From the IMG/VR virus record IMGVR_UViG_2690316366_000001, positions 44,555-108,554 of that record: 64,000 nt of DNA; one strand, written 5' to 3'. Position 1 is the stretch's first letter, and every line of letters begins with the position of its first letter. The notes beneath the pieces are model-generated. The model ran no database searches. It was not told the DNA's origin and worked only from the letters and a program-made list of their open reading frames with translations. The stretch is from a virus (taxonomy: Duplodnaviria; Caudoviricetes). This document shows positions 13,575 through 28,092 of this stretch, one piece after another. Position numbers and translations under genes: made by a program.

Positions 13575-13583
13575 GAGGGAGCA

Positions 13584-13865
13584 ATGTCGAGAGAGCCGAC
13601 ATCGCGCGCTGACGCGCTCCGTGCCCAGCGGGAAGCTAACTGGGAGCGGAATCAGGCACTGAAGCGCGAACTCGACGCACGCGACGCCGTAGCAGCGGCG
13701 GCCGCTGCCAAGGATGAAACGCCGGCGCCGAAGCGGGCACCGACGAAGAGGGGCAGAAGCGCGGAAGGGTCCGAAGGAGATAGCCAGCGCACTAACTCTG
13801 GATCTCTCCGATCACTCGATAGTGCTTGCGGGGTAAAACGCCGACCTCGGAACGTCCGCGGATGA
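13584..13865 (+). CDS. Hypothetical protein; 3' end overlaps the convergent island gene
   Basis: AGGAGG RBS; helical N-terminus. Confidence 0.45.
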   Translation: MSREPTSRADALRAQREANWERNQALKRELDARDAVAAAAAAKDETPAPKRAPTKRGRSAEGSEGDSQRTNSGSLRSLDSACGVKRRPRNVRG

Positions 13866-14778
13866 ACGGACGCCACCAGTATATCCCGCTCTTGCGGACC
13901 TTGAAGTGGCCCCGAACCTCATGCTCTCGTATCTCCGCATCGGATAGGTGCTGGGCCTCGGCACTTGCGGACTGTCGGGATGAGAGTTTGATCGTTACAA
14001 TCGAATGACTGAGACGCTTTGGCTTGGTGCCGGTGCGCTTCCGATTGATCTTTGAAAGGTCGGCATCGACTATGTCGATGGCATTGCGGCTGTTCAAGAG
14101 CGCAATTGCTGCGATTACTCGCTTGCTCTCGCCGACCAAATTCTCAGCTGCTGAAGCCTCTAATTGCTTTAACTGCAACGGTGGAACAGTTTTGATTAAT
14201 GCACCGTAGAAACGGCAGGGGGTGGCCGACTCTAGGCTGGTCAGTGCTTTGATTGCATCCCACTCACGTTCGTTGCCGCTAAACCTCTGGACGTATTCAT
14301 CGGATATCTCCCATTTGGATCGAGGCACCCAATCGGGGAATTGCCCGCTGGGACAGATAAATGAACTCAAATATGAAAGGTTCAACCGGGCGGACTCGTC
14401 GTGCAAGCCTCTCGCGACCGCAGAGGCTCGGGAGTGCAGCCAAACGTAGCTAGCCAAAATCAGCCCTTCTTCGGGCGTTTCAAGGAGCACGCCGAACTTG
14501 TCGGGCATCGGCAAGCTTTCAGTTGCCTCGCTGCGGTGAAGTGACCTGCGCTCAGACCATTCGAGCCAAACCGTTGGGAAAGGCAGTCGAACCATCGGAA
14601 CCGCTGACAGCAGGCTCGACGGCTTTGCGAAAGCAACTTGGCTCATGGCCTCGGCGGAGGTATCGCTGAATAGAAACCGCTGGGCCGTCCTGAGTTGGGT
14701 GGCAAGTTGGGTGATGGCTCCGCGAAACTGGCGATCGGCTGCAGATCCGACATTCTCGAGAACGATATCGGCTAACAT
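13792..14778 (-). CDS. Hypothetical protein (328 aa, lower GC) with C-terminal HEVRGH...WWRPF motif
   Basis: Long ORF with AGGA RBS; last gene of the leftward island. Confidence 0.75.
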   Translation of the reverse strand: MLADIVLENVGSAADRQFRGAITQLATQLRTAQRFLFSDTSAEAMSQVAFAKPSSLLSAVPMVRLPFPTVWLEWSERRSLHRSEATESLPMPDKFGVLLETPEEGLILASYVWLHSRASAVARGLHDESARLNLSYLSSFICPSGQFPDWVPRSKWEISDEYVQRFSGNEREWDAIKALTSLESATPCRFYGALIKTVPPLQLKQLEASAAENLVGESKRVIAAIALLNSRNAIDIVDADLSKINRKRTGTKPKRLSHSIVTIKLSSRQSASAEAQHLSDAEIREHEVRGHFKVRKSGIYWWRPFIRGRSEVGVLPRKHYRVIGEIQS

Positions 14779-14784
14779 GCGGTC

Positions 14785-15114
14785 CTACTCGCCCTGTTCG
14801 ATATCGGCGTCCGCCGGCATCTGCCTCAGCTTCTGATAGGGAAATTCACCGAGATCCGGATGCAGCCGGTCGTGCTGGATCATCGCAGCCGCAGCCATGC
14901 GAGCTGTCCCGTGCGCGTTCGGCAGCGTCATCATGGTCAGCGCTATCGGCACCCAAGTCGGGATGTCGTTCCCCCCGTTGGCCCATTTCGTGACCGTGGT
15001 AAGGTTCTGGCACCAGATCCTGGCGAATGCGGGCACGGACATGCCTTGCTTGGCCAACTCGGCCTTGAAGTCCGCGGCCGAGATCTTGCGGTGAACAAAT
15101 CGGGGTGGGGACAT
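14785..15114 (-). CDS. XRE/Cro-like helix-turn-helix protein
   Basis: ISAADFKAELAKQGMSVPAFARIWCQNLTTVTKWANGGNDIP; AAAGGA RBS preceded by island hairpin. Confidence 0.75.
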   Translation of the reverse strand: MSPPRFVHRKISAADFKAELAKQGMSVPAFARIWCQNLTTVTKWANGGNDIPTWVPIALTMMTLPNAHGTARMAAAAMIQHDRLHPDLGEFPYQKLRQMPADADIEQGE

Positions 15115-15207
15115 CTGGAGATTCCTTTCCGGTTGGGCACAATCGCCCGGAATCGGCCGTAGCCGAGGGGGTAGCACAAAATCGATCGTAGCCGGGAGTC
15201 CCGGCCG

Positions 15208-15579
15208 TCAGGTGTAGTCGAGCGGATTGACCATCTGCTTGCCGACGGTCATCACCGGCGGGATGACGCCGCCGCGCTTAATCGCTGCCAGCCATTGCGC
15301 CTCCGTTCCCGTGAAGCCTGGTGCAGCCTCCACATGATGGTCGGCCAGCCATTTGGCGAGGGCCTCGGGCGAGGCGCACGGCGGCGAAACCGGTGTGCCG
15401 GCGCTGGTGGTCTCGTATAGCTGCCAATGCGTTCGCTCCGCGGCTGGCCAGGCCGGCATGCTGCGCGCGGGATCGGGCGAGGGCGCATCCGGGCCGGACT
15501 CGAGCAGCGGGACATATCGGCCGCCGGAGTTGCGGGGGTGCTGCCAGTCAGCGGGCACTTGCCTGACGGTTCTTGACAT
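15208..15579 (-). CDS. Phage hypothetical protein (THWQLYETTSAGTPVSP motif)
   Basis: AAAGGAG RBS; clean ORF. Confidence 0.75.
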   Translation of the reverse strand: MSRTVRQVPADWQHPRNSGGRYVPLLESGPDAPSPDPARSMPAWPAAERTHWQLYETTSAGTPVSPPCASPEALAKWLADHHVEAAPGFTGTEAQWLAAIKRGGVIPPVMTVGKQMVNPLDYT

Positions 15580-15615
15580 AGCAATCTCCTTTCAAAATCG
15601 ATCGTATCCGGGGGA

Positions 15616-15888
15616 TCAGAACAGCGAGCCTTGCGCGGGCGCCGGCGGCTCAGGTTTAAGACGTCCGAGGTGCTCGACCGTCTCGCCTATGATCTGGTCG
15701 CGATCATCATCGATCAGCAGCCAACCATCATCGCCGCCCGCTGGATCGTAAACCACGAAGTCACCGCCCCAACGCTTGAAGATGCGTTGGGCCACCAGGC
15801 GCACGGCCGCGGGAACGTCCGTTGCGGCGTCGAACCCGGCCCGCGTCACGATCTTGAAGCCGGCCGCCGTCAGTATCTGTTCGGTCAT
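15616..15888 (-). CDS. Hypothetical protein ending in QGSLF (beta-clamp-binding-like motif)
   Basis: ORF coupled to the upstream gene; C-terminal QGSLF after a Pro-rich linker. Confidence 0.7.
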   Translation of the reverse strand: MTEQILTAAGFKIVTRAGFDAATDVPAAVRLVAQRIFKRWGGDFVVYDPAGGDDGWLLIDDDRDQIIGETVEHLGRLKPEPPAPAQGSLF

Positions 15889-16079
15889 GTTCGCTGGCCC
15901 TTCGCTCGTTCAAGGGCCGCTTGCACCTCCCAAGCCTGATAGATCGCCCCTCGGGCTTCCGTAAGCTTCTCCCGAACCTCTGGCCGCAATCGCTGGTCAT
16001 TCGAGTCCATGACGCGCGTGAGGCCGTCCAGGAGCCGGTTATAGGTGTCCCAGTGGAAAGGGTGCTTGCGTGCTGTCAC
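15885..16079 (-). CDS. Small helical hypothetical protein (GTG start)
   Basis: GTGA overlap with upstream stop; GAGGG upstream. Confidence 0.6.
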   Translation of the reverse strand: MTARKHPFHWDTYNRLLDGLTRVMDSNDQRLRPEVREKLTEARGAIYQAWEVQAALERAKGQRT

Positions 16080-16387
16080 CGCCGCGCCCTCGCGGCTGCA
16101 TGAACCTTGCGGGCGAGCTCGTCGCGGATCGCGCGGCCAACGTCGGAGTCCTCCATAGCGGTCAGCCAAAGGCGTTCATCGTCCTTGACGACGGCCGCCG
16201 CGGCTTCCTCCAGCGTTTTGCCGGCCATGAAGTGCGGCGCCACGCGGGCAATGAAGGTCTTTTCGTCGTCCGTCAGCTGACGGCCCGGAGCCGGCGGCGC
16301 AGCGAAGGCACCTCCGAGCGCTTCGAGGACGCCGGCGCGCGCGCCTTCAACGGGACCGGAATAGATTTCAGTCTTCTTGGCCGTCAT
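16076..16387 (-). CDS. Hypothetical protein (103 aa)
   Basis: GGAGG RBS. Confidence 0.7.
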   Translation of the reverse strand: MTAKKTEIYSGPVEGARAGVLEALGGAFAAPPAPGRQLTDDEKTFIARVAPHFMAGKTLEEAAAAVVKDDERLWLTAMEDSDVGRAIRDELARKVHAAARARR

Positions 16388-16470
16388 GGGTGAACCTCCG
16401 TTCAAATCGGTCGTAGCCGAGGGGGTGATGGGAAATCGATCGTAGCCGGGGAGGTGGGCGCAGCCGGGGG

Positions 16471-18831
16471 CTATCCCGGCGGCGGCCCATCGATCACGAC
16501 GAGCGCTGTGTTGACCATGGTACCGGCGGCCTTGAATGACCCCGCGGGCAGAGGGCGGTATTCCACCGCCATCGGTTCGAGCTTCGCCCGCTGGCGCGGA
16601 CCGTCGGCGCAGATCGCGACGAGCCGGCCACGAGGCTTCAAGAACTTCCGGCCATGCGTGATGTGCTTGATGTCGGCGCCGTTCTCAAATGGCGGGTTCA
16701 TCAAGACAATGTCGAAACGCTCGGCCGGCGGGTCGAAGTCCAGGAAGTCGCCGCAGTGGACGAACGTGCCGGGGAACGCTGCGCGCAGGTGCTCCGAAAG
16801 TTTTGCGTTGATCTCGACCGCCACCACCTGCAGACCATCGGCGCAGTTGCGCGCAGCTTCGATCAGTGCGCCCGTTCCGGCGCTCGGCTCCAAGATGCGC
16901 TGCCCGGGCCGGATGTCGGCCGCCTCTGCCACGTCCGCGGCGAGTTCGCCCGATGTCGGGAAGAGCTGAGGCGCAACGACGACTTGCACGCCGCCGCCTT
17001 TCAGCATCGCCCGCATGGCCTCGAAACTATCCGCCGCCGTCGGCGCGGGCAAATCGGCCGTATCCGGGACCGGGGCGAGAACGCGCGGCCGAAGGTCCGC
17101 CGGCACGGGCTCGGCCTCGAACGGCACGCCAGCCAGTCCGCAGAATTGCCGCCAGGCGGTCGCCTCGTCGTCGCACCAATCTGTAACGTGCTGGCCGAGG
17201 CCAACACGGAATTTGCCGAGTCCGGTGATGATCTCGGCGCCCGCGCGCTGCGCCTCCGCCTTGGCATCGCCGAGGCGCCGCGGCTCTTCCGCGGGCGCAA
17301 CCGGGACCAGCGCCGCCACGGCCTCGGGCTCGTCCTGGGCCTCCCTCTCGACCGGTGCGCCGATGATCGCGCCGACCGTTGCCAGCATGGCGTCAAGATC
17401 AACCGCGGGCGGCGCGACATACTCGGCGACGAATTCGGCCGGCTCGGTTGGCTCCGGTGCTGGCGCGATCTTGGGCGGATCGACCCGCTTTGCATCCGTG
17501 ATGTAAACTTGGACCTTCTTCCAGTATTCACCGGGCTTCGGCATCTGGCGGACGCGGTGCGCGCTGTGGGTCTCGGTCTCCTTCACTTTGCCGATATAGG
17601 GGAAATCCGAGAACTGCGGGCGCGCCTTCCATTCGGCCTCCGTCATCTCGCGGAATCCTTCGCCGGGATAGTTGCAGATCGGCGGGAGCTTGGCGGCGGA
17701 CTTCGCCGCGGCGACGTTCTCCGCGCTCGGCGGCCGATAATCGCTGATGCTCTCCACGCTCCATTGCGCGCGCTTGGAGCGCGAGCCAGTCGGCGCGGTC
17801 GTCGTCATGCTGGAAACCGAACCGTTGGCGCCCTTGTTGACCTTCAGCACGGTAAGCCACTCGTCGCAGCGGCTCGTCTGCACCTGACCGCCGACCGCGA
17901 AGGCGAAGCGGTCCGCAAGCGGGTTGGCGGTCGCCTCCGCTCCGATCTGCTCGGCCAGCATCGCCCGTTCATAGGCCAGCCGGTTGTCATAGTGCGCAAT
18001 CCAGCGGGCGCGCCGAGGCCCGGAGCGCTCCAGGCTCGGAATCGCAATCGCGGCGGCCTGCGCGGCGGTGATGACGTTCCCATCAATCGCCGACCAAAGG
18101 CCCATTGGCCCCTCATACTGCGAGGCCGGCGGGTCGCGCGGATAATCGGCCAACGGAAACGACATCGACCAATAACCGCCGACATTGGCCACGGCCAAGC
18201 CGGCCGCGCGCTGCTTCTCGGGGTCATTGATGCCGGCGACGATTTGCCAGGCCTTCAGCTGCCTTTCGGTCTCCGCCTGCTGGCGCTCCACCTTCCGCTT
18301 GTCGGACTCAATGCCCTTGATGCGGCGATGACGCACCGCCGGCAGTTCCTTGTATTTCGCATGAGCGATTGCGCCGGCCGCGCGCGCAGTCCAATAATTC
18401 GAGGTGTCCCAGAGCCTGACCGCCTTGCGCATGTTGCTGTGTATGCGCTCTTGATCCTTGCGGGCACGCTTCTCGCTGTGGTGCCCAACCAAAATAGGCT
18501 GCCCCCCATAGAAGCGCTCGGCGATCTCATCGGACACTTTCCGCGCGCTCTCGGCTTCCGCCAAGCGCTTTTCGCTATACCCCTCGAAGCGGTCGGCGCG
18601 CTGCTCGGCGCGGTCGGTCAGCGCGGTGTCTTCGTCGCCGATCTCGCCACACATCTCAATCAGCAAGTCTTCGGCGCCGGGGCTCCAGGTTGGTTTGACG
18701 AACAGTTCTTGACGCGGCGCCCACTTGAAGCCGGCGGCCTTCACGCGCGCGTAATCCTCGGCGTCGAGCCGGTGCGCCGGATAAAGGCGCAGCTTGTTGT
18801 CATCGGGCGAATAGGTGGCGGAATGCTGCAT
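16471..18831 (-). CDS. DUF3560-like N-terminal domain fused to a gamma-class DNA adenine methyltransferase
   Basis: GQPILVGHHSEKRARKD motif; C-terminal FPT, LEPSAGTG, AVEIN, LMNPPF; preceded by island hairpin and AAAGGA. Confidence 0.85.
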   Translation of the reverse strand: MQHSATYSPDDNKLRLYPAHRLDAEDYARVKAAGFKWAPRQELFVKPTWSPGAEDLLIEMCGEIGDEDTALTDRAEQRADRFEGYSEKRLAEAESARKVSDEIAERFYGGQPILVGHHSEKRARKDQERIHSNMRKAVRLWDTSNYWTARAAGAIAHAKYKELPAVRHRRIKGIESDKRKVERQQAETERQLKAWQIVAGINDPEKQRAAGLAVANVGGYWSMSFPLADYPRDPPASQYEGPMGLWSAIDGNVITAAQAAAIAIPSLERSGPRRARWIAHYDNRLAYERAMLAEQIGAEATANPLADRFAFAVGGQVQTSRCDEWLTVLKVNKGANGSVSSMTTTAPTGSRSKRAQWSVESISDYRPPSAENVAAAKSAAKLPPICNYPGEGFREMTEAEWKARPQFSDFPYIGKVKETETHSAHRVRQMPKPGEYWKKVQVYITDAKRVDPPKIAPAPEPTEPAEFVAEYVAPPAVDLDAMLATVGAIIGAPVEREAQDEPEAVAALVPVAPAEEPRRLGDAKAEAQRAGAEIITGLGKFRVGLGQHVTDWCDDEATAWRQFCGLAGVPFEAEPVPADLRPRVLAPVPDTADLPAPTAADSFEAMRAMLKGGGVQVVVAPQLFPTSGELAADVAEAADIRPGQRILEPSAGTGALIEAARNCADGLQVVAVEINAKLSEHLRAAFPGTFVHCGDFLDFDPPAERFDIVLMNPPFENGADIKHITHGRKFLKPRGRLVAICADGPRQRAKLEPMAVEYRPLPAGSFKAAGTMVNTALVVIDGPPPG

Positions 18832-18875
18832 GTGTTTTCATCCTTTCAACTTGCGCACAATCGCGCGGGGCTGCT

Positions 18876-18905
18876 TCTCTAATTTGTGTCGGCCGAATCT
18901 GTCAA
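18876..18905 (-). promoter_or_regulatory. Candidate sigma70-type promoter for the methyltransferase sub-operon
   Basis: Perfect TTGACA (18905-18900) followed after 18 bp by a weak TAGAGA -10. Confidence 0.45.
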
Positions 18906-18960
18906 GCGTGTTTGCAAAATCGGCCGTAGCTCGGGGGTGGAAAATCGATCGTAGCCGGGA

Positions 18961-19863
18961 CTACTGCGCAGTGCCGACGCGCAGGAGTGCCAAGGCGTGA
19001 TACTCGCTGCCCTCGGCGGCCTTGGCCTTTACGAATGCCTCGGCCTCGTCGTCGCGGCTCACGCCGTCGCGGACAAATATTGAAGACTCGGCGTCCGCCT
19101 GAATCTCAAGCGTGCCGGTGTCGCTGTTCTCGAACAGGCCCCATCCTTCCGAGCAAGCGCGGTCATCCTGCCCGATGAATTGCGCCGCGGGCGCAGCCGG
19201 GAGGCCGGCGGCCGCTCGGCGATAGGCCTCGGCCGCCTCGTCAGCGTCGGAGACCGCTTCCGCAATCGTGCCGTCCTCGTCGCTGAACATGCCGCGCATC
19301 TGGTCAATCTGATGGGTGCAGGCGTCGAGCGCGCCGGCCAGGTCGCGGGCGATCTGGCGCCAGTCCTGCGCAGGCGCAACCGGGACTGTGCCGCCGACAA
19401 TCTCCAATTCCTCGACCCGGAAGAAGTCGCCGCGCATTTCGCCGACGCGCTCAAAATAGGCTTCCGCTAGCTCGTCAGGATCGGCCGGCTTGTCCTCGTC
19501 CATCCGTGCGGCCCAATTCTCGGCCGCGATCTCACGGCGCCAGGCGCGCGCCGTGTCGCTGTTAGGATAGAGGCGCGTTTCGTCGCCGTGCCGGGTTTCA
19601 TGGGTAGCCACGGCGAGCGGTGGCAGCGTCACGGTCTGCTCTTCGATGATGCAGGGGCCGTCAACGGCATCTTCCCATAGCTCGCTGATATTGTCCGCCG
19701 TCGCGGCCTCGACCGCGGCCAGGCGCTCGGGGGTCCGCTTGAGGATGTCGCGCAGGCTCGTGCGGACATATTCCGCCGCCTCGGACTGCGTGGCGTGCAC
19801 CGTGGTTTCGGTCCCGCAGTTGTCGCCCTCAGTGGTGCAAGTCCAAATCGTGATTGTGCTCAT
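18961..19863 (-). CDS. Acidic hypothetical protein (300 aa), probably multidomain
   Basis: AAAGGAG RBS; D/E-rich. Confidence 0.75.
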   Translation of the reverse strand: MSTITIWTCTTEGDNCGTETTVHATQSEAAEYVRTSLRDILKRTPERLAAVEAATADNISELWEDAVDGPCIIEEQTVTLPPLAVATHETRHGDETRLYPNSDTARAWRREIAAENWAARMDEDKPADPDELAEAYFERVGEMRGDFFRVEELEIVGGTVPVAPAQDWRQIARDLAGALDACTHQIDQMRGMFSDEDGTIAEAVSDADEAAEAYRRAAAGLPAAPAAQFIGQDDRACSEGWGLFENSDTGTLEIQADAESSIFVRDGVSRDDEAEAFVKAKAAEGSEYHALALLRVGTAQ

Positions 19864-19907
19864 TGTGATGATCTCCTTTCAAAAACAACCGTAGCCAAGG
19901 GGCGGAA

Positions 19908-20790: not shown

Positions 20791-20837
20791 AACGGTTCCT
20801 TTGTTCTGTGATGGGAGATCGGCCGGCGACGGGACTG

Positions 20838-21116
20838 TTAGCAATTCACTTCGTGAAAGCCGCGCGCACCGTTCAAGACCTTGAAGCCCGGCGGGGAACG
20901 ATCGCCCTTGCCAATCCGCATAGTGGCAACCGCCGGCTTTCCCGTTGCCGCCAGGTCCGCGCAGTAGTCCGCGAATGCCTTTTCTGCATCGGCCGCGCGC
21001 TTGATCTCGACTTCGCGCCGTGGGAGCGGGCTTTTGTCCTCTCCGATGCAAAGCGCCACGCTAACGAATGCGCCGTTACGTTCCGCCGCGTAGCTATTCA
21101 AGATCAGTTTTGCCAT
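20838..21116 (-). CDS. Hypothetical protein (92 aa)
   Basis: AAAGGAG RBS preceded by island hairpin. Confidence 0.75.
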   Translation of the reverse strand: MAKLILNSYAAERNGAFVSVALCIGEDKSPLPRREVEIKRAADAEKAFADYCADLAATGKPAVATMRIGKGDRSPPGFKVLNGARGFHEVNC

Positions 21117-21202
21117 GTCGTTTAACTCCTTTCGAATTGCGCACCATTGCGCCGAAAAAATCGGCCTAGCCGACGGATTGGGGAAATCGGCCGCAACCGG
21201 GA

Positions 21203-21616
21203 CTAGGCCGCGGCGACTTGCTCGGCCGGCTTTTCGTCGGTCTGCGAAACGTCGAAAACCGGGACCAGGATAAACCGCACCGACTCCGCCACGGCCTCGG
21301 CTGCGGCGCCGTCCGCGCTCGGAGCCGCTGAGGCCTCGGCCGTTGCGCGCCGGCCGGACGGCGCAAAGATGTAGATTGCGGACTCGCCTTTGCGGACCGC
21401 GCGGCCGGCGGCAAGCCATTGATTGAAGCCGCCCAGCATGGTTGCGCCTTCGCATTGCATCGCCGCCAGCATGTGATTTTTGCCGGATATCGGCCGCGCG
21501 TCCGCGGTGAGGATCGGCGCGCGCTGCAGCCAAAGCGCCTTCTGCTCTTCCGTCATGTTGGCAATCTGGCGCGCCAGCTGCGCGGCCTTTTCTTTGTTGG
21601 GATTCGGTTTCCGCAT
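21203..21616 (-). CDS. Stand-alone ArdC-like N-terminal ssDNA-binding domain protein
   Basis: SGKNHML...GFNQWLAAGRAVRKGESAIYIFAP...F..VPVFDVSQT matches the ArdC-N pattern; hairpin plus AAAGGA. Confidence 0.75.
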   Translation of the reverse strand: MRKPNPNKEKAAQLARQIANMTEEQKALWLQRAPILTADARPISGKNHMLAAMQCEGATMLGGFNQWLAAGRAVRKGESAIYIFAPSGRRATAEASAAPSADGAAAEAVAESVRFILVPVFDVSQTDEKPAEQVAAA

Positions 21617-21686
21617 GGTCTGTTTTCCTTTCCGGTTGCGCACAATCGCGCGTGTTGCATTCCGTGAGGCCGAGGCGCGCCGCTTC

Positions 21687-21884
21687 TTAGTGCAGTTCCC
21701 AGGCGCGCAATTCGACGCCTGAACGCTTGCCGCGCTTGAATTCGTCGCAGCGGCGCGCGTATTCCTCGGCCTCGGCGGCAATATCAAACCGCCGCGATAG
21801 TTCGCCCCAATTGTTGAATTCGCAGCGATCAACCAGGCGAAACTTTGCGCCATCGGGCAAGATATCGAATCCATAGGCTCGCAT
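21687..21884 (-). CDS. Small hypothetical protein (65 aa)
   Basis: GGAG RBS; fits between neighbours. Confidence 0.6.
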   Translation of the reverse strand: MRAYGFDILPDGAKFRLVDRCEFNNWGELSRRFDIAAEAEEYARRCDEFKRGKRSGVELRAWELH

Positions 21885-21899
21885 TGCTGGCGACTCCGA

Positions 21900-22997
21900 C
21901 TAGCTGGCGCGGATCGCGCAGAGAGGCGCAACCGGGAGGGATGGCCGAGGCGCGCCGAGCGATGACGAGGCCAGGAAGCGCGCGGCGCGGGAAGGCGCAA
22001 CCGGGATAGGGGCCGCGGAGTTGGGCGCGGGCGCAACCGGGAGGGAATCGGCCGTATCCGGGAGGGAGGCCGCCGCGGTTTCGACGCCGGCGGAATTGTC
22101 TGCGACAAGCCGCAACCGCGGCGCCTCGGCCTCGGCCTTGGCTGCAGCTGCGCGCGCCTCGGCCTCTTGCTCGGCGCGCCGGCCGGCCTCGGCCTCGGCC
22201 TTTGCCGCGGCTTTGGCCTCGGCCTCGGCCGCGCGAACGATGGCGCGGCGCCGCGCTTCAATTTCCAGCCATGCCATACCGCCGAGGCGCGACCGATAGT
22301 CTGCAATCTGCGCGCCGAGCTCGGCCGCGCGTTCCTCGTCGGCGCCGGCCAAAATCTCGGCCTCGGCCGAGGCAATGAGGTAGTGCCCGCGGTAGAAGTC
22401 GGCGCGCGTCAACCCGCCGGCCTCGGCGGTTTCCGGCAAGGCCGAGGCCTCGGCGGAAAGTGCGACATGATCGAAACGGCCGCGGCGATATTCGGCCGTC
22501 CGCGCGTTGCATTCCTCGGCCGGATATTCGGCGCCGGTAGCGTCACAGATGGCGGAAATGATGGACGGGACCGCGACACAATCGGAACCGATGGCCGAGG
22601 CTTTCCCGAATTCCCGCGCGATCCGCGCGCGGTAGAAGGCAAAGGCAACACGCAAGCCGCGGCCGATATTGACCGGCTTGCCAGGCAGTGAAACCGCTGG
22701 CGCGCGTACCACGGCGCCGCATGCGAACGTCACAACGATGATAGGTGACTTGCCTAGCTTTTTCGTCGCGCTTGCAGGAATGACGTAGTCCGCCCATGGA
22801 TCCGCCGCGCCGTCCGGGATCTTGGCCGCGCCGGATCCAGCTTTCTGCGCCGGCAATGCGAGGCGCAGCAAATCGGCAATGCCGCGCCAGTTCGCGCCGT
22901 CGGGATTCGCGGTCGCGTTGTCATAGGCGAGGATCGCCAGCGCGCGCCGTTCCGTTGCCTTTGCGGCCTTGGCCGCGATCAAATCAACTTGTTGCAT
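21900..22997 (-). CDS. Ala-rich hypothetical protein (365 aa) with coiled-coil and PVAP-repeat tail
   Basis: AAAGGA RBS preceded by island hairpin; start MQQVDL. Confidence 0.75.
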   Translation of the reverse strand: MQQVDLIAAKAAKATERRALAILAYDNATANPDGANWRGIADLLRLALPAQKAGSGAAKIPDGAADPWADYVIPASATKKLGKSPIIVVTFACGAVVRAPAVSLPGKPVNIGRGLRVAFAFYRARIAREFGKASAIGSDCVAVPSIISAICDATGAEYPAEECNARTAEYRRGRFDHVALSAEASALPETAEAGGLTRADFYRGHYLIASAEAEILAGADEERAAELGAQIADYRSRLGGMAWLEIEARRRAIVRAAEAEAKAAAKAEAEAGRRAEQEAEARAAAAKAEAEAPRLRLVADNSAGVETAAASLPDTADSLPVAPAPNSAAPIPVAPSRAARFLASSSLGAPRPSLPVAPLCAIRAS

Positions 22998-23061
22998 GGT
23001 CCATTGTCCTTTCTGATTTGCGCACGATTGCGCCGAGAATTGAGGGAAGGCCGAGGCCAGG

Positions 23062-23360
23062 TTAGGCCGTAGCTTTGGCGCGGCGCCGCGCGTCAATCGC
23101 GGCGCGTATCTCTTTCTTGAACCGGGGCGCATAACGGCCGTTGAATGCGCGCAATTCAGAAAAGGCGATATCGGCCGCGGCCTTGGCAATCCGGTATCGC
23201 GGATCGAATTTAATTCGGTCCGGAGTCAGTCCCATCGGACCGCGCGCCGGAATCCCATTTCGGCCGCAAGGCCTTCTGTCACGGCGCCGAGGCGCGCGCC
23301 GGCCTCTTTCATCCGATTATCCAACTCGGCCGCGGCGGCTTGGAATGCTGCAAAATCCAT
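23062..23360 (-). pseudogene. Phage hypothetical gene (RGPMGLTPD...LRAFN type) split by a probable 1-nt deletion near 23255
   Basis: AGGTG RBS and MDFAAFQ...AEMG, then a frame change to IPARGPMGLTPDRIKFDPRYRIAK...; span 299 nt (3n-1). Confidence 0.6.
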
Positions 23361-23368
23361 CGGTGCAC

Positions 23369-23557
23369 CTAGACGCTTTCGTCAAAGCGCGCGGCCTCAA
23401 AGTCGCGGCTTGCCTGTTCTGCCTCGGCGCCGGTAAGCATGCGGCGGCTTGTCGGATAATAGAACGCGCGCGTTCCGACCGGGATGAAATGCCCGTTGCG
23501 GTCATTGGCCGGATATTTGGTAATGATCCATCGCGGATCGCCGCCATAGCGTGCCAT
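23369..23557 (-). CDS. Small hypothetical protein (62 aa, MARYGGDPRWI)
   Basis: AAAGGA RBS preceded by island hairpin. Confidence 0.75.
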   Translation of the reverse strand: MARYGGDPRWIITKYPANDRNGHFIPVGTRAFYYPTSRRMLTGAEAEQASRDFEAARFDESV

Positions 23558-23615
23558 TGTAGTCTGTCCTTTCCAGTTTGCGCACAATCGCGCGAATGAA
23601 TTCGACGGCGCCGGC

Positions 23616-23954
23616 CTAGTAACCTGCGGCCTCGGCGGAATAGTCGCGCTGGCCAGTCTCGGCGATTTGCCAGTCCGGAAAGCGCGCGCCGTTTTCGGTA
23701 TCGTTGTACCCCGCCGAGAGCCTATCGGCCGCGCAGCTGCAAACGCCATCGCGGGTTATGCGTCCATCGCAGTCCGCGCCATCGTTGCACCATTCGTTAG
23801 TCACGGTTTGCCCGTCGAAAGAAAAGATATTTGACTCGCGCGTCCATCCTTCGTCCGTTCTGGCGCCGTGCGAATGGTGCAACGTTTGGCCAGTCCGCAA
23901 CGCGATACGGACAAGGCCGGATTTGTGATAGTGCCAAAAGCGCGCTGTTTTCAT
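23616..23954 (-). CDS. Hypothetical protein (112 aa; TDEGW, DCDGR, QRDYSAEAAGY motifs)
   Basis: AAGGGA RBS; clean ORF. Confidence 0.75.
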   Translation of the reverse strand: MKTARFWHYHKSGLVRIALRTGQTLHHSHGARTDEGWTRESNIFSFDGQTVTNEWCNDGADCDGRITRDGVCSCAADRLSAGYNDTENGARFPDWQIAETGQRDYSAEAAGY

Positions 23955-23967
23955 GGTGCGGTATCCC

Positions 23968-24297
23968 TTACGGAAGGCGGTTGAAAACGGAATGATAGGC
24001 CGAGGCCTCGGCGATGCATTCCCGCGCGGCCTCCAGATTGCGAGCGCGGCTCATGGGCGAGAGTTTCGCCGCGCGCCGATAGTAAGCCGCCCAGTGCAAA
24101 GCCTCGGCCGCAAGCGCGCGGCGCGGCCGGCAAGATAGGCGAGAGGTACGCAAGGCAACCGGACCGGCCGCGCGTTCTGCGCGCGCCGTGAATTCGATTC
24201 CGTTACAGACAATCCAGAACGTTGCCACGTTGTGGCGCCGGACGCGCGCCTCGGCGCGTAGCGCGGAAATGGTGCGGCGGTATGCATCGCGATTCAT
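23968..24297 (-). CDS. Basic hypothetical protein (109 aa)
   Basis: ATGA overlap with the upstream gene; GGAG RBS. Confidence 0.6.
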   Translation of the reverse strand: MNRDAYRRTISALRAEARVRRHNVATFWIVCNGIEFTARAERAAGPVALRTSRLSCRPRRALAAEALHWAAYYRRAAKLSPMSRARNLEAARECIAEASAYHSVFNRLP

Positions 24298-24698
24298 GCT
24301 GCGCGCTCCAGTTCGCAAGCCGCGGTCCATCCGGTTGCGCGATCATAGGAGGCCGCGCGCGCGATCATTGGCGGCTTGCGCAATTCGTCATCCGGCGGAA
24401 TCACGCCATAGCGTTCCGGCGCAGCGTCAAGTTTCGCCATGGCTGCAGCATGCTCGGCCGCGCGCCACACATTGAAGGCCGCGACGATATGCGCCGGTAG
24501 CGGTTCAGCGTATCGGACAAGCATGCCGATTCCGGTCCGCATGGCGCGGCGGACGTCATCGCCATTTGCTATCGATAGCTCATAGTCAGAAACGGAATGA
24601 CGGATGGAAACTTCATAGCTGCCGGTTTCATCTGTCACGCGATAGTAAACGGTCCCCATGTAGGAACACGTCCAAGCGAATTGCGGTTTGCGGTTCAT
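24294..24698 (-). CDS. Hypothetical protein (134 aa)
   Basis: AAAGG RBS preceded by island hairpin. Confidence 0.75.
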   Translation of the reverse strand: MNRKPQFAWTCSYMGTVYYRVTDETGSYEVSIRHSVSDYELSIANGDDVRRAMRTGIGMLVRYAEPLPAHIVAAFNVWRAAEHAAAMAKLDAAPERYGVIPPDDELRKPPMIARAASYDRATGWTAACELERAA

Positions 24699-24736
24699 GG
24701 TCGAAAGCCTTTTTCGATTGCGCACAATCGCGCGGG

Positions 24737-24979
24737 TTAGTTGGCCAGGTTCCTAGCTTCACGGTTGAGCGCGGAAACCTCGCGACGAAACGCCGTGATT
24801 CCCTTTTCTCCGATATCCAACTTTCCGCCGGTCGGAGTCGGCAGATATCCGACATAACCGCGAATGTTGAAATACAGCTGGCCAGTCCGCGCGCCGTTCA
24901 AGAGAACGTCATAGCGCGGCGTCTTTTCCAGCGTTTGGCAACCGCGGCGGGTTTCCTGCAATTCCAATTTCCAAGGCAT
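24737..24979 (-). CDS. Hypothetical protein (80 aa)
   Basis: AAAGGA RBS preceded by island hairpin. Confidence 0.75.
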   Translation of the reverse strand: MPWKLELQETRRGCQTLEKTPRYDVLLNGARTGQLYFNIRGYVGYLPTPTGGKLDIGEKGITAFRREVSALNREARNLAN

Positions 24980-25072
24980 TGGCCGTTGTCCTTTTCGAGT
25001 TTGCGCACAATCGCGCTTTGGTCCGCTTTGGCGTTCCGTTGTACGGCGCGCGCGGCGCCGTACAGGGGAAAG

Positions 25073-25384
25073 TCAGAAGGCGGCTTGATTGGGCGGCTTA
25101 GGCAATCCGGAAAGCGCGCTTAACGTTTGCGCAACAGACTGCGCGGCCTCGGCCGTTGGGCAATCGGTAATTGCTTCGCAACCGCCGGCTTTGAGATGGG
25201 CGTAAACGGTCCAAAACTCGGCCTCGGAATCCGGGATTCCGCCATTGGTGAAAGTGAACCCGGTTTCGTCCGTTTCCGTGTTGCATCCGCCGACTTCAAG
25301 CCAATCAAATGGCGACCAATCCGGCGCCGTGTTACCAGTGCAGCAATTGAAATAGACGGCGCCGTCAAGTGACACTGCAGGCAT
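25073..25384 (-). CDS. Acidic Cys-containing hypothetical protein (103 aa)
   Basis: GAGGAG RBS. Confidence 0.7.
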   Translation of the reverse strand: MPAVSLDGAVYFNCCTGNTAPDWSPFDWLEVGGCNTETDETGFTFTNGGIPDSEAEFWTVYAHLKAGGCEAITDCPTAEAAQSVAQTLSALSGLPKPPNQAAF

Positions 25385-25396
25385 TGCCCTAACTCC

Positions 25397-25501
25397 TCAA
25401 AGGCAAGAATTCAGAAAAGCACGCTTGCCATTGCGGTCCGCGGCGCGCCGAGTCCGCTTGTCCATCGGCCGGCGCTCGGAATCATGCTTGCGATACTTCA
25501 T
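25397..25501 (-). CDS. Very small basic peptide (34 aa, MKYRKHDSERR)
   Basis: AAAGGA RBS preceded by island hairpin at the usual spacing. Confidence 0.65.
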   Translation of the reverse strand: MKYRKHDSERRPMDKRTRRAADRNGKRAFLNSCL

Positions 25502-25593
25502 AGCTCGTTTTCCTTTTCCAGTTTGCGCACAATTGCGCGGTTTCGGCGGTTTGTCGGTTATGCCGTGACGTGCACGGCATAGGCTGCAAACCG

Positions 25594-25902
25594 TTAGCGG
25601 CGATCCTGCAGCGCGCTGGCGATGGTATCGCCAAAGCCTAACAGGATCGAAACGGAATCCGATTGGGCCAGGTCGGCGCCAGTTTCGCAACGAATGACGG
25701 CCGGCGCGGTCCCGCGCCATTCGCGGCGAATGATCGAATTTGCGAAACGATGGTGCGCATAGTCGGGATTCGATAGGAGCACGGCGCAATGTGCTGCGCG
25801 CTGCATTGTCCGCCTATCAGCTGCAGCCATCCAAGCCATATCGAATTCGTCGCGCAGTGCATGCCGCGCCGCGTCCAGTGCTACAGGGTTTCCGATTTGC
25901 AT
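25594..25902 (-). CDS. Hypothetical protein (102 aa)
   Basis: GAGGAG RBS overlapping the upstream stop. Confidence 0.65.
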   Translation of the reverse strand: MQIGNPVALDAARHALRDEFDMAWMAAADRRTMQRAAHCAVLLSNPDYAHHRFANSIIRREWRGTAPAVIRCETGADLAQSDSVSILLGFGDTIASALQDRR

Positions 25903-25915
25903 TGTTGCGCGCTCC

Positions 25916-26101
25916 TCAATTCGCGATTGCGAGCGCAAGCCGCGCGGTGCGGATATGGCCGAGGCGGTCCGCTGGAATGGTGCGATCGGCCGAGGCCAGG
26001 GTTTCGGCATTGGACACAAGCCGCAATGCGAGTGTGAGGTTTCCGAGGCGGATCGCCGCGGCCGCATGATGCAACAGGCTTCTAACGGTTGAGTTTGTCA
26101 C
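25916..26101 (-). CDS. Small helical hypothetical protein (61 aa, GTG start)
   Basis: GAAGG RBS preceded by island hairpin. Confidence 0.65.
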   Translation of the reverse strand: MTNSTVRSLLHHAAAAIRLGNLTLALRLVSNAETLASADRTIPADRLGHIRTARLALAIAN

Positions 26102-26152
26102 TGCTCTTGCCTTCAAGTTTGCGCACAATCGCGCGGGTTGAGCCGGACCGGG

Positions 26153-26344
26153 CTAGCGGCGCGGCGGACTGGAACGGCGCGCGCGGCGCCGGATCATGAG
26201 GCGCCGAGGCTTTGCCGGCGCGTAAAGGAAGGGAGCTAGGCCAGCCCAGCAAAGGGTATAGATCGCCGCAACAATCAAACCGGCAACCGGTGGGTTAGCT
26301 GCGCAAAGGGAAAGGAAGGCGTGCACGGCGCGGCCCCTAAGCAT
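26153..26344 (-). CDS. Small membrane protein (one TM segment, basic tail)
   Basis: VAGLIVAAIYTLCWAGLAPFLY hydrophobic segment; start overlaps upstream stop. Confidence 0.5.
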   Translation of the reverse strand: MLRGRAVHAFLSLCAANPPVAGLIVAAIYTLCWAGLAPFLYAPAKPRRLMIRRRARRSSPPRR

Positions 26345-26573
26345 TCGGCCGCGATTGGTCGGCGGACACTTCGCACGATATGACGCGAAAGCACGCAATG
26401 CCTTTGGCGTTCAATTCGCGATACTTGGCCAACGAAATACGCTCGGCAAAGCGCGCGCGGTCTTTGGCACGGTCGCAGGCATGATCAGCGGAATGGGAAA
26501 AGAGGCGGATATGATAATCGCAACCGGTTGCGATACGGCGGACAGTGACTTGATAGGCGAGGGTCTTTGCCAT
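26337..26573 (-). CDS. Hypothetical protein (78 aa), first hairpin-associated gene of the island
   Basis: AAAAGG RBS preceded by island hairpin; TTGACA at 26649-26644 upstream. Confidence 0.7.
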   Translation of the reverse strand: MAKTLAYQVTVRRIATGCDYHIRLFSHSADHACDRAKDRARFAERISLAKYRELNAKGIACFRVISCEVSADQSRPNA

Positions 26574-26722
26574 GTCGGCGGCCTTTTGAGTTGCGCACAA
26601 TCGCGCTTTCCGTTCGCCGCACATGCCTATAAAGCGCGGCGCGTGTCAATCCCTTAATTCGCTATTCTGTGAAAAAAGATAGCGGTTAGACCGGCCGGAC
26701 TCACACTAGAGGGAATTCCGGC

Positions 26723-27034
26723 CTATTCCTGCAGAATGGCGTTTATCCGCCCGAGGCGAAAGGCCTCTTGCATGGGTACCGCGGGCGAAAGGCCGGCCGC
26801 AACGGCGCGACACTTCAAGGCGAGTTCAGCGCTACCGCCTTCCGCGCGTACAGCCGTGACAGTGTTAGGCGAGATAAACAGCGCTGCAGCTGCGGCGCCA
26901 TTGGATAGGCCTAGCTCCTCTTGCCAGGCCTTGAATTCGGCCGCGCTGATTCGCATTGCGGCGCCGGCCGAGGCATAGGCGCGGCCTTTGCCAGCTTGCC
27001 TCGGCGCCGAGTTATCCGCCTTCGCTGCAGGCAT
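26723..27034 (-). CDS. XRE/Cro-like helix-turn-helix protein
   Basis: ISAAEFKAWQEELGLSNGAAAAALFISPNTV...LALKCRAV; GAGGG RBS (alternative start 26956). Confidence 0.7.
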   Translation of the reverse strand: MPAAKADNSAPRQAGKGRAYASAGAAMRISAAEFKAWQEELGLSNGAAAAALFISPNTVTAVRAEGGSAELALKCRAVAAGLSPAVPMQEAFRLGRINAILQE

Positions 27035-28087: not shown

Positions 28088-28092
28088 CCGGC

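What the first reader, a model, noticed from the sequence alone, without database searches (positions are those of the whole stretch)
13792..27034. 13-kb antisense island of about 27 small genes between the packaging HNH and cos/terS: candidate first-injected anti-defence region
Seen: in place of the usual short HNH-cos-terS interval there are 13.2 kb of tightly packed minus-strand genes, mostly 34-140 aa with strong SD sequences. They include an ArdC-like ssDNA-binding domain, a DUF3560-methyltransferase fusion and two HTH proteins, and are organised by two repeat families. Known: in lambda the end packaged last enters the cell first; ArdC and such methyltransferases are typical of plasmid leading regions. 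Inference: if cos is at ~27.5 kb, the island is the terminal segment of the virion DNA, transcribed inward from the end. It would be a plasmid-leading-region-like establishment module in a temperate phage, and its unknown ORFs are candidate new anti-defence or host-takeover proteins.
Basis: partly seen in the sequence, partly recalled or inferred. Interest (0 to 1): 0.9.

Follow-up and report, generated by a model that had tools for sequence, protein, structure and literature searches.

The report
Antisense gene island at phage DNA end
A family of Bradyrhizobium prophages carries a 13-kb backward-facing block of about 27 mostly unknown small genes between the packaging nuclease gene and the predicted DNA end, a likely early counter-defence module whose role is still untested.

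Summary
Window 13792-27034 is an unbroken minus-strand run of 27 ORFs (23 are 140 aa or shorter). It lies between a plus-strand HNH gene and terS/terL of an HK97-type head module. It contains an ArdC-N protein, a DUF3560-methyltransferase fusion and two strictly polar repeat families.

New here:
- The island sits at the same place in all 8 related Bradyrhizobium prophages compared. It has a conserved core and many swapped genes.
- It is absent from the other relatives of the terL clade, where a detectable HNH lies directly before terS.
- The cos guess is supported indirectly. In the clade, 13 of 40 contig-end-truncated loci end just upstream of terS, and 10 of those start at one shared motif. 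The window has that motif once, at 27553-27570. One 38-kb contig has terS at one end and HNH at the other.

So the island is very probably the right-terminal ~13.7 kb of virion DNA, read inward.

Not shown: early expression, first entry (last-in-first-out is disputed even for lambda) and any anti-defence activity. Only 2 of 27 genes are plasmid-type. The two largest unknown proteins gave no fold match.

Earlier scan notes concern this same stretch, not other DNA.

Verdict: a new variant of a known kind (T5 first-step region, L5 right arm, plasmid leading regions). Interest is moderate to high.

The parts
13230..13574 (+). HNH endonuclease gene (114 aa), last gene of the rightward early operon; left border of the island
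   Evidence: phrog_589 E 4.5e-9, phrog_144 1.1e-5. Ortholog present in 6 of 6 compared regions. 46% identical homolog at the extreme end of linear contig G006.
13792..14778 (-). 328-aa ORF of low G+C (55.6% against about 63%), within a window-specific 1.2-kb insertion at the distal end of the island operon
   Evidence: Composition and translation. No DNA match in 5 relatives for window 13580-14797, apart from one weak 127-nt match in G001. No Pfam, PADLOC or NCBIfam hit.
14785..15114 (-). 109-aa conserved last core gene (family F5), distantly similar to the first gene; its hairpin carries the compensatory GGGC..GCCC variant
   Evidence: Present in 6 of 6. BLASTP to 26723-27034: 41% over 41 aa, E 0.004. 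Variant hairpin.
15208..16387 (-). four small genes (123, 90, 64, 103 aa; families F6-F9); F6 and F7 are core
   Evidence: Gene calls. F6 and F7 in 6 of 6, F8 and F9 in 3 of 6. No Pfam family within threshold (sub-threshold DUF3348 on the long form of 15885-16169) and no PHROG hit.
16471..18831 (-). 786-aa DUF3560 + adenine-type class-I methyltransferase fusion (F10), core gene
   Evidence: PF12083 at 1.2e-32 (residues 72-188) and MTase families at 620-740. PHROG DNA methyltransferase families and weak DarB-like hit. PADLOC mad2 and MTase_II on the MTase domain only. About 50% identical over 80% of its length in at least 5000 plasmid records.
18961..19863 (-). 300-aa strongly acidic protein (pI 4.3, net charge -35; F11), unknown fold
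   Evidence: 16 homologs; all that carry a name are from Bradyrhizobium or Rhodopseudomonas. AF2 pLDDT 73.8. Foldseek PDB: none at E<=1e-3. VIA best Z 7.2 on one helical hairpin.
19908..21116 (-). three small genes (116, 64, 92 aa; F12-F14), variable
   Evidence: No Pfam or PHROG hit.
21203..21616 (-). 137-aa ArdC N-terminal (ssDNA-binding) domain protein without the metalloprotease half (F15)
   Evidence: PF08401 at 2.3e-6, 28.2 bits above the cutoff of 22.6. phrog_7245 'anti-restriction protein' at 8.5e-7. Present in 5 of 6.
21687..22997 (-). 65-aa gene (F16) and 365-aa core protein (F17): confident alpha/beta N-terminal domain, long single helix 243-301, disordered tail
   Evidence: F17 in 5 of 6. 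38 homologs, none with a Pfam domain. AF2 pLDDT 77.9. No Foldseek match at E<=1e-3. VIA matches only the long helix, Z<=6.6.
23062..23360 (-). F18 gene split by a 1-nt deletion in a G run (99 aa intact in relatives; 44 + 57 aa here)
   Evidence: Alignment to the intact copy in L048. The intact copy hits phrog_7560.
23369..26573 (-). eleven small genes (34-134 aa; F19-F28), the most variable half of the island
   Evidence: Only phrog_23974 (unknown function) for 25073-25384.
26723..27034 (-). 103-aa first gene of the island (F29), probable HTH regulator, core
   Evidence: Present in 6 of 6, also in L057, L058 and L132. Sub-threshold HTH_30, GerE and HTH_23 at residues 38-63. Alignment A1.
26660..27095 (.). 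about 55-nt inverted repeat flanking the first gene (26660-26715 against 27040-27095); the 5' copy covers its Shine-Dalgarno
   Evidence: I20. Duplex energies and sequences in 6 phages are. In G1, G4 and G5 both sides carry GTCAC-N6-GTGA(C) palindromes.
15133..26606 (-). 12 copies of the hairpin cassette GCGC(G/A)-AYNG-UGCGC-AA, followed by 3-5 nt, GAAAGG(A), 7-10 nt and a start codon
   Evidence: 76 distinct copies in 8 phages: 99.7% of 380 cells paired, closing pair GU 50 / AU 25 / GC 1, one pair CG to GC in 3 rows. No Rfam family.
15150..23182 (-). 13 copies of the second polar repeat (CCC)GGCTACGRYCGATTT; 10 intergenic, often in pairs 25-29 nt apart; it replaces the hairpin directly before the Shine-Dalgarno of 15208-15579, 16076-16387 and 18961-19863
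   Evidence: for the 13 copies. Families D6, D8 and D9. Upstream sequences of the three genes.
27151..27250 (+). conserved rightward TTGACA box followed by a stem-loop with a T run (27211-27250), pointing at cos and terS; candidate late promoter plus terminator
   Evidence: Conserved in 6 of 6 aligned intergenic regions. Fold -37.3 kcal/mol. Not called by the consensus scan.
27547..27600 (+). predicted cos region: G run 27547-27552, then CTCATTCGCACATTTTTT (27553-27570) where relatives' linear contigs begin, then a conserved A/T-rich block (candidate terS-binding side)
   Evidence: Single match in the window against 0.02 expected.
27632..29972 (+). terS (151 aa), a 65-aa ORF and terL (561 aa); right border of the island and start of the HK97-type head module
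   Evidence: terL is 55% identical to Burkholderia phage Bcep176 terL.

Best explanation
The island is the right-terminal ~13.7 kb of the virion chromosome of an HK97-type cos-packaging temperate Bradyrhizobium phage. It is specific to this lineage and lies between the HNH gene and cos.

Proposed mechanism, with status of each step:
1. Terminase cuts about 80 nt upstream of terS, near window 27.55 kb, and packages terS-end first. The island is therefore packaged last. This step is inferred.
2. The island is one leftward, largely polycistronic unit that starts about 0.5 kb from the DNA end. Its first gene is a small HTH-like regulator whose gene is bracketed by inverted operator-like repeats.
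3. Most cistrons carry a standard translation-start cassette: a 5-bp hairpin with a 4-nt loop, then GAAAGG(A), then the start codon. The same cassettes mark the borders at which genes have been exchanged between related phages.
4. The conserved cargo includes an ArdC-type ssDNA-binding domain protein and a plasmid-type DUF3560-adenine-methyltransferase. I therefore think the most likely role is establishment and counter-defence early after DNA entry or induction: self-methylation, DNA protection and inhibitors among the unknown small, often acidic proteins.

Shown: the anatomy, conservation, mosaicism and plasmid affinity of one gene. Supported indirectly: the cos position. Inferred: packaging direction, entry order, timing of expression and any anti-defence activity.
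For: Anatomy.

Conservation of position. 5 of 5 IMG/VR relatives examined have both flanks and island segments. The ortholog table gives F5, F6, F7, F10 and F29 in 6 of 6, and F15 (ArdC-N), F17, F18 and F19 in 5 of 6, with many singletons. Two further Bradyrhizobium genomes and one metagenome contig add to this. Island length is 10.7-14.3 kb in 8 phages.

Lineage specificity. Of 34 terL-clade loci with a full 10-kb upstream flank, only the one that is itself a group member has a long minus-strand array and the motif. Island protein homologs occur in 1 of 79 other loci. A detectable HNH lies 528-1664 nt before terL in 12 of 12 cases.

cos. 40 of 80 clade loci are cut by a contig end upstream of terL. 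In 13 of those 40 the end lies 384-589 nt before terL. 10 of the 13 begin within a few nt of C(C/T)CA(C/T)GCGCA..TTTTTT, and 2 more contain it 17 and 40 nt inside. The 38.2-kb contig G006 has terS 47 nt from one end and an HNH homolog (E 3e-20) 55 nt from the other. The window has the motif once, at 27553-27570, against 0.02 expected. It is conserved in the relatives' intergenic alignment.

Cassettes. 12 hairpin copies sit at a fixed distance from the Shine-Dalgarno and 99.7% of cells are paired. All exact copies in 4 whole host genomes (6, 4, 3 and 3) lie in the island, with 0 in the control. 96 of 624 homology-block ends lie within 25 nt of a cassette, against 33.3 +/- 5.6 at random.

Counter-defence flavour. 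The F10 family occurs in at least 5000 plasmid records, of which 3892 are conjugative. Its neighbours there are antirestriction, DUF1380, DNA methylase, ssb, DUF932, kleA and radC genes. Orphan MTases and anti-defence islands are enriched in plasmid leading regions (PMC11541004, passages read). ArdC-N is a hallmark of proteins that protect incoming DNA (PMC5512222, passages read). PADLOC finds no defence system in the 10 proteins tested (9 island genes and the neighbouring TPR gene), beyond the MTase domain and one marginal Cas12u1 row.
Against: - No expression data exist and no promoter is identified. The consensus scan found 1 promoter-like site against 3.3 expected. The TTGACA boxes I saw at about 26650 and 18900 have non-canonical spacing.
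- 23 of the 27 ORFs have no family match at all. The exceptions are F10, F15, the intact form of F18 and 25073-25384; the last two hit only PHROGs of unknown function.
- The two largest unknowns have no recognisable fold.
- ArdC-N and DUF3560-MTase are associated with ssDNA transfer, which a dsDNA phage does not perform.
- cos is inferred from relatives at 55-70% terL identity, not mapped. L076/L077 and L111/L112 are near-duplicates, so the 13 contig ends are fewer independent events. L080 lacks the motif.
- Last-in-first-out ejection was found to be only about 50% in lambda in vitro (PMC10287942, abstract).
- Fast dsDNA injection may make entry order irrelevant.
- One core gene is frameshifted in this phage, so not every gene is needed.
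Confidence: 0.5

Rival explanations
1. An ordinary accessory ('moron' or nin/b-region-like) hot spot next to cos. The position reflects where insertions are tolerated, not entry order. The genes are a mixed bag (DNA metabolism, host takeover, regulation) expressed as part of the normal early programme.
For: Mosaic content with many singletons. A window-specific low-G+C insertion. A frameshifted core gene. Most genes without any anti-defence signature. LIFO is disputed.
Against: The operon has a conserved architecture, its own regulator, dedicated start cassettes and a conserved ArdC-N/MTase core across 8 phages. This argues for a coherent module rather than random accretion. The strict inward orientation is kept in all relatives.
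Confidence: 0.25
2. A lysogeny-expressed island (superinfection exclusion, defence or lysogenic conversion) transcribed from its own promoter in the prophage, opposite to the lytic operons.
For: Antisense orientation to both lytic operons is typical of prophage-expressed morons. It has its own HTH regulator. No k-mer of 10 nt or more is shared between the immunity region and the island's control region, so CI control is not evident. Cos-adjacent hot spots in P2-like phages carry defence genes (recalled, not checked in a call).
Against: PADLOC finds no defence-system protein among the 10 proteins tested (9 island genes and the neighbouring TPR gene); the only rows are for the MTase domain and one marginal Cas12u1 hit at E 0.0098 on the 109-aa gene. 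The recognisable genes are offence or establishment types. About 27 tiny genes with uniform strong start cassettes look like a burst-expression array.
Confidence: 0.17
3. An independent mobile element or satellite inserted into the phage.
For: It is absent from other members of the terL clade, where HNH abuts terS. It carries plasmid-type genes.
Against: No integrase, transposase, relaxase or replication gene appears among its proteins. It has the same position and orientation in 8 of 8 related prophages, even where terL is only 55-59% identical. The motif is found nowhere else in 4 host genomes.
Confidence: 0.03

Closest known systems
Phage T5 first-step-transfer (pre-early) region
   Same: A terminal segment of roughly 10 kb with many small genes that act before the rest of the programme, including restriction evasion. 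Seen only as abstracts in the search listing: 10.64898/2026.04.02.716235 and PMC10644984.
   Different: T5 is virulent, has long terminal repeats and a two-step injection with a stop signal. None of these was seen or tested here. This phage is temperate with predicted cohesive ends.
Mycobacteriophage L5/D29 right arm with Pleft and stoperators
   Same: A cos phage whose early lytic genes are read leftward from a promoter at the extreme right end. Many copies of an asymmetric site, in one orientation, lie in intergenic regions (PMC5712189, passages read).
   Different: In L5 the sites are repressor-binding DNA sites spread over the whole genome, and the right arm includes the replication genes. 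Here the repeats are confined to the island and sit at a fixed distance from the Shine-Dalgarno. They tolerate G-U pairs on the sense strand only. Replication genes lie elsewhere.
Leading regions and anti-defence islands of conjugative plasmids
   Same: Clusters of small genes oriented for expression from the entering end, rich in orphan methyltransferases, ssDNA-binding and antirestriction proteins (PMC11541004, passages). The DUF3560-MTase gene itself is a common plasmid gene in such neighbourhoods.
   Different: There is no oriT, relaxase, ssb or psiB here. ssDNA promoters were not tested. DNA enters double-stranded. 25 of 27 genes have no plasmid counterpart detected (at nucleotide level only).
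Polyvalent proteins and ArdC (Iyer et al. 2017)
   Same: An ArdC-N domain, and an adenine methylase fused to a further conserved domain. These are domains that paper assigns to protection of incoming DNA (PMC5512222, passages).
   Different: ArdC-N stands alone here (137 aa) without the metallopeptidase. The fusion has 2 recognised domains, not a giant multi-domain protein. Nothing shows that either is packaged in the virion.
HK97-type HNH-cos-terS packaging module
   Same: HNH gene, terS, Terminase_1-type terL, PF04860 portal, ClpP-type protease and HK97-fold capsid. Relatives have HNH and terS at opposite ends of a linear contig.
   Different: HNH is separated from cos and terS by about 14 kb of antisense genes.

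Membership tests
HK97-type HNH-assisted cos packaging module | Terminase_1-type large terminase, small terminase, PF04860 portal, prohead protease and HK97-fold capsid in one block | tested here: met
   PF03354 + PF20441, PF04860, PF00574, PF05065; PHROG terS and terL.
HK97-type HNH-assisted cos packaging module | HNH endonuclease gene immediately adjacent to cos and terS | tested here: not met
   HNH ends at 13574 and terS starts at 27632. In 12 of 12 other clade loci with a detectable HNH, it lies 528-1664 nt before terL.
HK97-type HNH-assisted cos packaging module | Cohesive ends at a fixed site upstream of terS | not testable with these tools
   Indirect only: contig ends of relatives cluster at a shared motif that is present once in the window. 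No run with raw reads holds the window.
Plasmid leading region / anti-defence island | Lies next to oriT and enters the recipient first | tested here: not met
   No relaxase or oriT-associated gene among the island proteins. The element is a phage. The analogous property (next to the DNA end) is inferred.
Plasmid leading region / anti-defence island | Enrichment of known anti-defence, orphan MTase, SSB or anti-SOS genes | tested here: inconclusive
   2 of 27 ORFs qualify (ArdC-N, DUF3560-MTase). No dedicated anti-defence HMM library was available.
Plasmid leading region / anti-defence island | ssDNA (Frpo-type) promoters | not tested
   No model of these promoters was at hand. Rfam gave no match in 13000-28500.
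ArdC antirestriction protein | N-terminal ssDNA-binding domain PF08401 | tested here: met
   28.2 bits, above the gathering score of 22.6.
ArdC antirestriction protein | C-terminal metalloprotease domain | tested here: not met
   The protein is 137 aa and only residues 11-90 match, to the N-terminal domain.
Stoperator system (cluster A mycobacteriophages) | Many asymmetric sites in one orientation relative to transcription, mostly intergenic | tested here: met
   12 + 13 copies, all on the minus strand.
Stoperator system (cluster A mycobacteriophages) | Sites spread over the genome and bound by the immunity repressor | tested here: not met
   The sites are confined to the island within the 108-kb record. 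No sequence is shared with the immunity region. Binding itself is not testable here.
Integron-like cassette array | Tyrosine-recombinase integrase next to the array, and attC sites at cassette 3' ends | tested here: not met
   No integrase among the island proteins. The only integrase found is at the far left of the record. The conserved element is a 16-nt hairpin at the 5' side of each gene.

The most novel reading that the evidence does not exclude
These phages keep a dedicated 'leading region': an exchangeable array of counter-defence genes at the DNA end that enters first. Each gene is plugged in behind a standard hairpin-plus-Shine-Dalgarno cassette. The cassette both guarantees immediate translation and serves as the recombination joint for swapping genes between phages. 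This would be a recombinase-free, integron-like gene-cassette system for anti-defence, and its roughly 20 unknown proteins would include new inhibitor families.
Probability: 0.25. Interest if true: 0.85.

Novelty: new variant of a known kind. Interest (0 to 1): 0.6.

Why it matters
If the island is an early counter-defence array, it offers a compact, comparative source of new anti-defence candidates. There are about 20 unknown families, with natural presence/absence variation across at least 8 phages, in an agriculturally important host genus.

It would extend the 'first DNA in carries the weapons' rule from plasmids and virulent phages (T5, T7) to temperate cos phages.

It also shows that one plasmid establishment gene (DUF3560-methyltransferase) has moved into a phage.

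The uniform hairpin start cassette is a testable natural example of context-insulated translation starts and of modular gene exchange.

Independently of function, the contig-end analysis gives a usable prediction of the cos site for this phage group.

Tried and rejected
Function searches that gave nothing
- Pfam, PHROGs, PADLOC and NCBIfam on island proteins gave only the hits listed above. Each library was given a subset of the island proteins: PADLOC and NCBIfam 9-10 each, PHROGs 20. The last seven small genes (25397-27034) were not sent to PHROGs.
- ESM Atlas: F11 had a best score of 0.79 with unnamed clusters, which is within the chance range. F17 residues 1-240 had no usable hit.
- AlphaFold models of F11 and F17 gave no Foldseek PDB match at E<=1e-3. 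VIA-align wide gave only single-helix or helical-hairpin matches, Z<=7.2 and <=6.6. The other parts of both models were barely tested, so I do not claim new folds. The BFVD viral library was not searched.
- PDB sequence search with F10 returned only remote adenine MTases, E >= 6e-4.

Similarity searches
- Megablast of 13000-30000 against phages matched only Bcep176, in terL.
- F10 against phages: 225 records, none covering 80% or more, MTase domain only.
- blastn of 19001-27000 against plasmids: 4 Streptomyces records, all on a low-complexity Ala-rich stretch. The left half of the island was not searched this way.

Regulation
- No k-mer of 10 nt or more is shared between the immunity region and 26600-27640.
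- The promoter consensus scan was not enriched.
- Rfam gave two chance-level snoRNA rows. There are no tRNAs.

Sequencing runs
- No RNA holder is listed. The best DNA holder has 0.28 of the words, as contigs only. I did not lay reads because contigs cannot show ends.

cos
- A terS scan of IMG/VR gave 4 loci, one cut inside terS, so it was uninformative.
- The far ends of G007-G009 are repeats or mid-gene, so they are not physical ends.
- The degenerate pattern was written to cover both the contig starts and the window's copy. Its 0 mismatches are therefore by construction; only the uniqueness counts.

Papers
I could not check whether DUF3560 or ArdC-N families are listed. 'ArdC' has 0 occurrences in its main text.
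- A full-text search for DUF3560 found 5 papers. None of the 4 listed has the term in title or abstract, and I did not open them.
- The Bradyrhizobium prophage paper PMC10127595 (passages read) predicts cos3 packaging for two other prophages. It does not mention methyltransferase, ArdC or antirestriction (0 occurrences each). I found no paper describing this island.

Considered and rejected
- A single-subunit or N4-like RNA polymerase promoter as the meaning of the motif: no RNAP gene was seen among the proteins scanned (not all were), and the motif lies only about 20 nt from the start codon.
- An FNR/NnrR-type box: the half-sites are not palindromic.

Full report
**What the window is**

The window is the last 64 kb of a 108.5-kb IMG/VR provirus record. 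The hosts of its relatives are Bradyrhizobium species.

The record reads like a lambda-style temperate phage:
- an integrase at the far left and a leftward early block with recombination genes;
- an S24-peptidase repressor;
- a rightward early operon with a beta clamp, a C5 methylase, a Toprim primase, an N6/N4 methylase and a DnaB helicase;
- an HNH gene at 13230-13574;
- the island;
- terS, terL, portal, ClpP-type protease and HK97-fold capsid.

**The observation**

It is correct. From 27034 down to 13792 every gene I call is on the minus strand. There are 27 ORFs, of which 23 are 140 aa or shorter.

The ArdC N-terminal domain protein is 21203-21616. The DUF3560-methyltransferase fusion is 16471-18831. 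Both pass Pfam's own thresholds.

The 'two HTH proteins' are weaker. The first gene, 26723-27034, has only sub-threshold HTH hits. The last core gene, 14785-15114, has none. The two are faintly similar to each other.

Both repeat families are real and strictly polar.

The first is a 16-nt element with 12 copies, found only in the island and only on the coding strand. It always lies 3-5 nt before GAAAGG(A) and about 20 nt before the start codon. It can form a 5-bp stem with a 4-nt loop.

In 76 distinct copies from 8 phages, 99.7% of 380 stem cells pair. The closing pair alternates between G-U (50), A-U (25) and G-C (1). One pair is swapped from C-G to G-C in 3 rows, all before the same ortholog, so this is one event.

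G-U pairs work only on the sense strand, which favours an RNA element. The near-invariant stem sequence also fits a sequence-specific binding site. I cannot decide between these.

The second repeat has 13 copies against 0.48 expected. It lies after genes, often in pairs. In three cases it sits where the hairpin would be, directly before the Shine-Dalgarno.

**Relatives**

An exact-motif scan of IMG/VR found 9 contigs with two or more copies.

In 5 of 5 records examined, the HNH flank, island segments and the terS/terL flank are collinear with the window. Two further Bradyrhizobium genomes and one metagenome contig also carry the island.

Distances from HNH to terS are 10.7-14.3 kb.

The ortholog table shows:
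- a core of F5, F6, F7, the DUF3560-MTase and the first gene F29 in 6 of 6;
- ArdC-N, the 365-aa F17, F18 and F19 in 5 of 6;
- many genes found in one or two phages only.

The island is kept even where terL is only 55-59% identical.

Ends of nucleotide homology blocks fall within 25 nt of a hairpin cassette in 96 of 624 cases, against 33.3 +/- 5.6 at random. Part of this is expected simply because the cassette is the only conserved sequence between unrelated neighbours. It does show that the exchanged unit is one gene behind its cassette.

In four whole host genomes every exact copy of the motif lies in the island. In a sample of 301 genomes of the genus, 10 have an exact copy, and only the 4 known carriers have several.

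**Where cos is**

A scan of IMG/VR with a terL alignment returned 80 loci. 40 of them are cut by a contig end upstream of terL. In 13 of these 40 the end lies 384-589 nt before terL, which is just upstream of terS. A uniform spread over 10 kb would put fewer than one there.

10 of the 13 begin within a few bases of the same motif, C(C/T)CA(C/T)GCGCA..TTTTTT. Two more contain it 17 and 40 nt inside, and one lacks it. Two pairs are near-duplicates, so the number of independent ends is nearer 10.

One contig of 38.2 kb has terS 47 nt from one end. It has an HNH homolog (46% identity, E 3e-20) reading outward 55 nt from the other end. That is what a linear HK97-type genome cut at cos looks like.

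The window carries the motif once, at 27553-27570, 79 nt before terS, against 0.02 expected. A G run precedes it and a conserved A/T-rich block follows it. All of this is conserved in the related prophages.

The terL is of the Terminase_1 type. The Bradyrhizobium prophage study assigns that type to 3'-cohesive-end packaging (PMC10127595, passage read).

So the cut is very probably at about 27.55 kb, and the island is the right-terminal ~13.7 kb of the virion DNA.

In other members of the clade a detectable HNH abuts terS (12 of 12). Long antisense arrays are missing in 33 of the 34 loci with full flanks; the exception is a group member. The island is therefore a lineage-specific insertion between HNH and cos.

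**The control region**

Between the predicted end and the first gene lie about 500 nt.

They hold a conserved rightward TTGACA box followed by a strong stem-loop with a T run (27151-27250). This looks like a late promoter with an early terminator that would read across the joined cos into terS. That is a reading by analogy with lambda pR'/tR', which I recall and did not check.

The first gene is bracketed by a ~55-nt inverted repeat whose 5' copy covers its Shine-Dalgarno. In the more distant relatives, both sides carry GTCAC-N6-GTGA(C) palindromes. This fits autoregulation by the HTH-like product.

No canonical sigma-70 promoter was found for the island.

**Function**

The 786-aa protein is about 50% identical, over 80% of its length, to a family found in at least 5000 plasmid records, of which 3892 are typed conjugative.

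In an E. coli IncFIB plasmid its neighbours are an antirestriction gene, DUF1380 genes, a DNA methylase and a Pol III theta homolog. In a Denitratisoma plasmid they are ssb, DUF932, kleA and radC.

Among isolated phages only its methylase domain has matches, often inside giant virion or DarB-like proteins.

Published analyses tie orphan methylases and ArdC-N to protection of incoming DNA (PMC11541004 and PMC5512222, passages read).

Several small products are strongly acidic: 300 aa with net charge -35, and others at -11, -10 and -7. This is compatible with DNA mimics but proves nothing.

Everything else is unknown. No defence-system model matched the 10 proteins tested beyond the methylase domain and one marginal Cas12u1 row. 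The two largest unknowns gave confident but unmatched models.

**What remains inference**

- Packaging direction is inferred from the conserved block on the terS side of the cut.
- Entry order is inferred. The last-in-first-out rule was found to hold only about half the time for lambda in vitro (PMC10287942, abstract).
- Timing of expression and all counter-defence activity are untested.

**Comparison with the known**

The arrangement works like three known systems:
- the T5 first-step-transfer region;
- the L5/D29 right arm, read from Pleft at the right genome end and punctuated by polar stoperators (PMC5712189);
- plasmid leading regions.

It is a member of none. It lacks terminal repeats, genome-wide repressor sites and oriT. 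Its ArdC homolog lacks the protease half.

I rate it a new variant of a known kind. The uniform hairpin start cassettes, which coincide with gene-exchange borders, are its most unusual feature.

**Earlier notes of this scan**

One search lists first-reader notes on the same stretch of the same genome, read in other windows (hairpin, second repeat, two HTH genes, same leading-region idea). I had found the hairpin before opening them. I took from them the lead to compare the two putative HTH genes.

Noticed in passing
window 9000-12000 (ORF 10282-11493, +): A G+C trough (0.52-0.54 against about 0.63) holds a 403-aa TPR + DUF1036 protein between DnaB and the 300-aa gene. It is probably a moron inside the early-right operon.
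   Followed up: partly
window 13580-14797: A window-specific 1.2-kb insertion with a 328-aa basic ORF of 55.6% G+C. It is appended 7 nt after the stop of the last core island gene and has no family hit.
   Followed up: partly
window 23062-23360: Core gene F18 is broken by a 1-nt deletion in a G run relative to the intact 99-aa copy in a relative.
   Followed up: yes
window 27151-27250: A conserved rightward TTGACA box plus a stem-loop with a T run lies about 300 nt before the predicted cos. It is a candidate late promoter with terminator, or a small RNA.
   Followed up: partly
window 26660-26715 and 27040-27095: A ~55-nt inverted repeat brackets the first island gene and overlaps its Shine-Dalgarno. 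Relatives have GTCAC-N6-GTGA(C) palindromes at both sides.
   Followed up: partly
window 2698-4623 and 6865-8187: Two more DNA methyltransferases (C5 and N6/N4 type) and a phage-borne beta clamp lie in the replication operon. The phage therefore carries three methylase genes in all.
   Followed up: no
loci L076, L077, L098, L099, L101, L111, L112, L122, L135, L142 (position 1): Independent metagenome contigs of the terL clade begin at the same short motif 20-70 nt before terS. This can serve as a marker of the left cohesive end for this phage group.
   Followed up: yes
record G000 1-44554 (upstream of the window): The provirus call is 108.5 kb, with the integrase at 911-2182 and a 17-kb leftward block (HerA-like, PD-(D/E)XK, AAA_23). 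Whether all of it is one phage was not checked.
   Followed up: no
L046/L056/L058 against window/L048/L057 (terL): Island-bearing prophages carry two terL types only 55-59% identical. The island has therefore been kept, or moved, across different packaging modules.
   Followed up: partly
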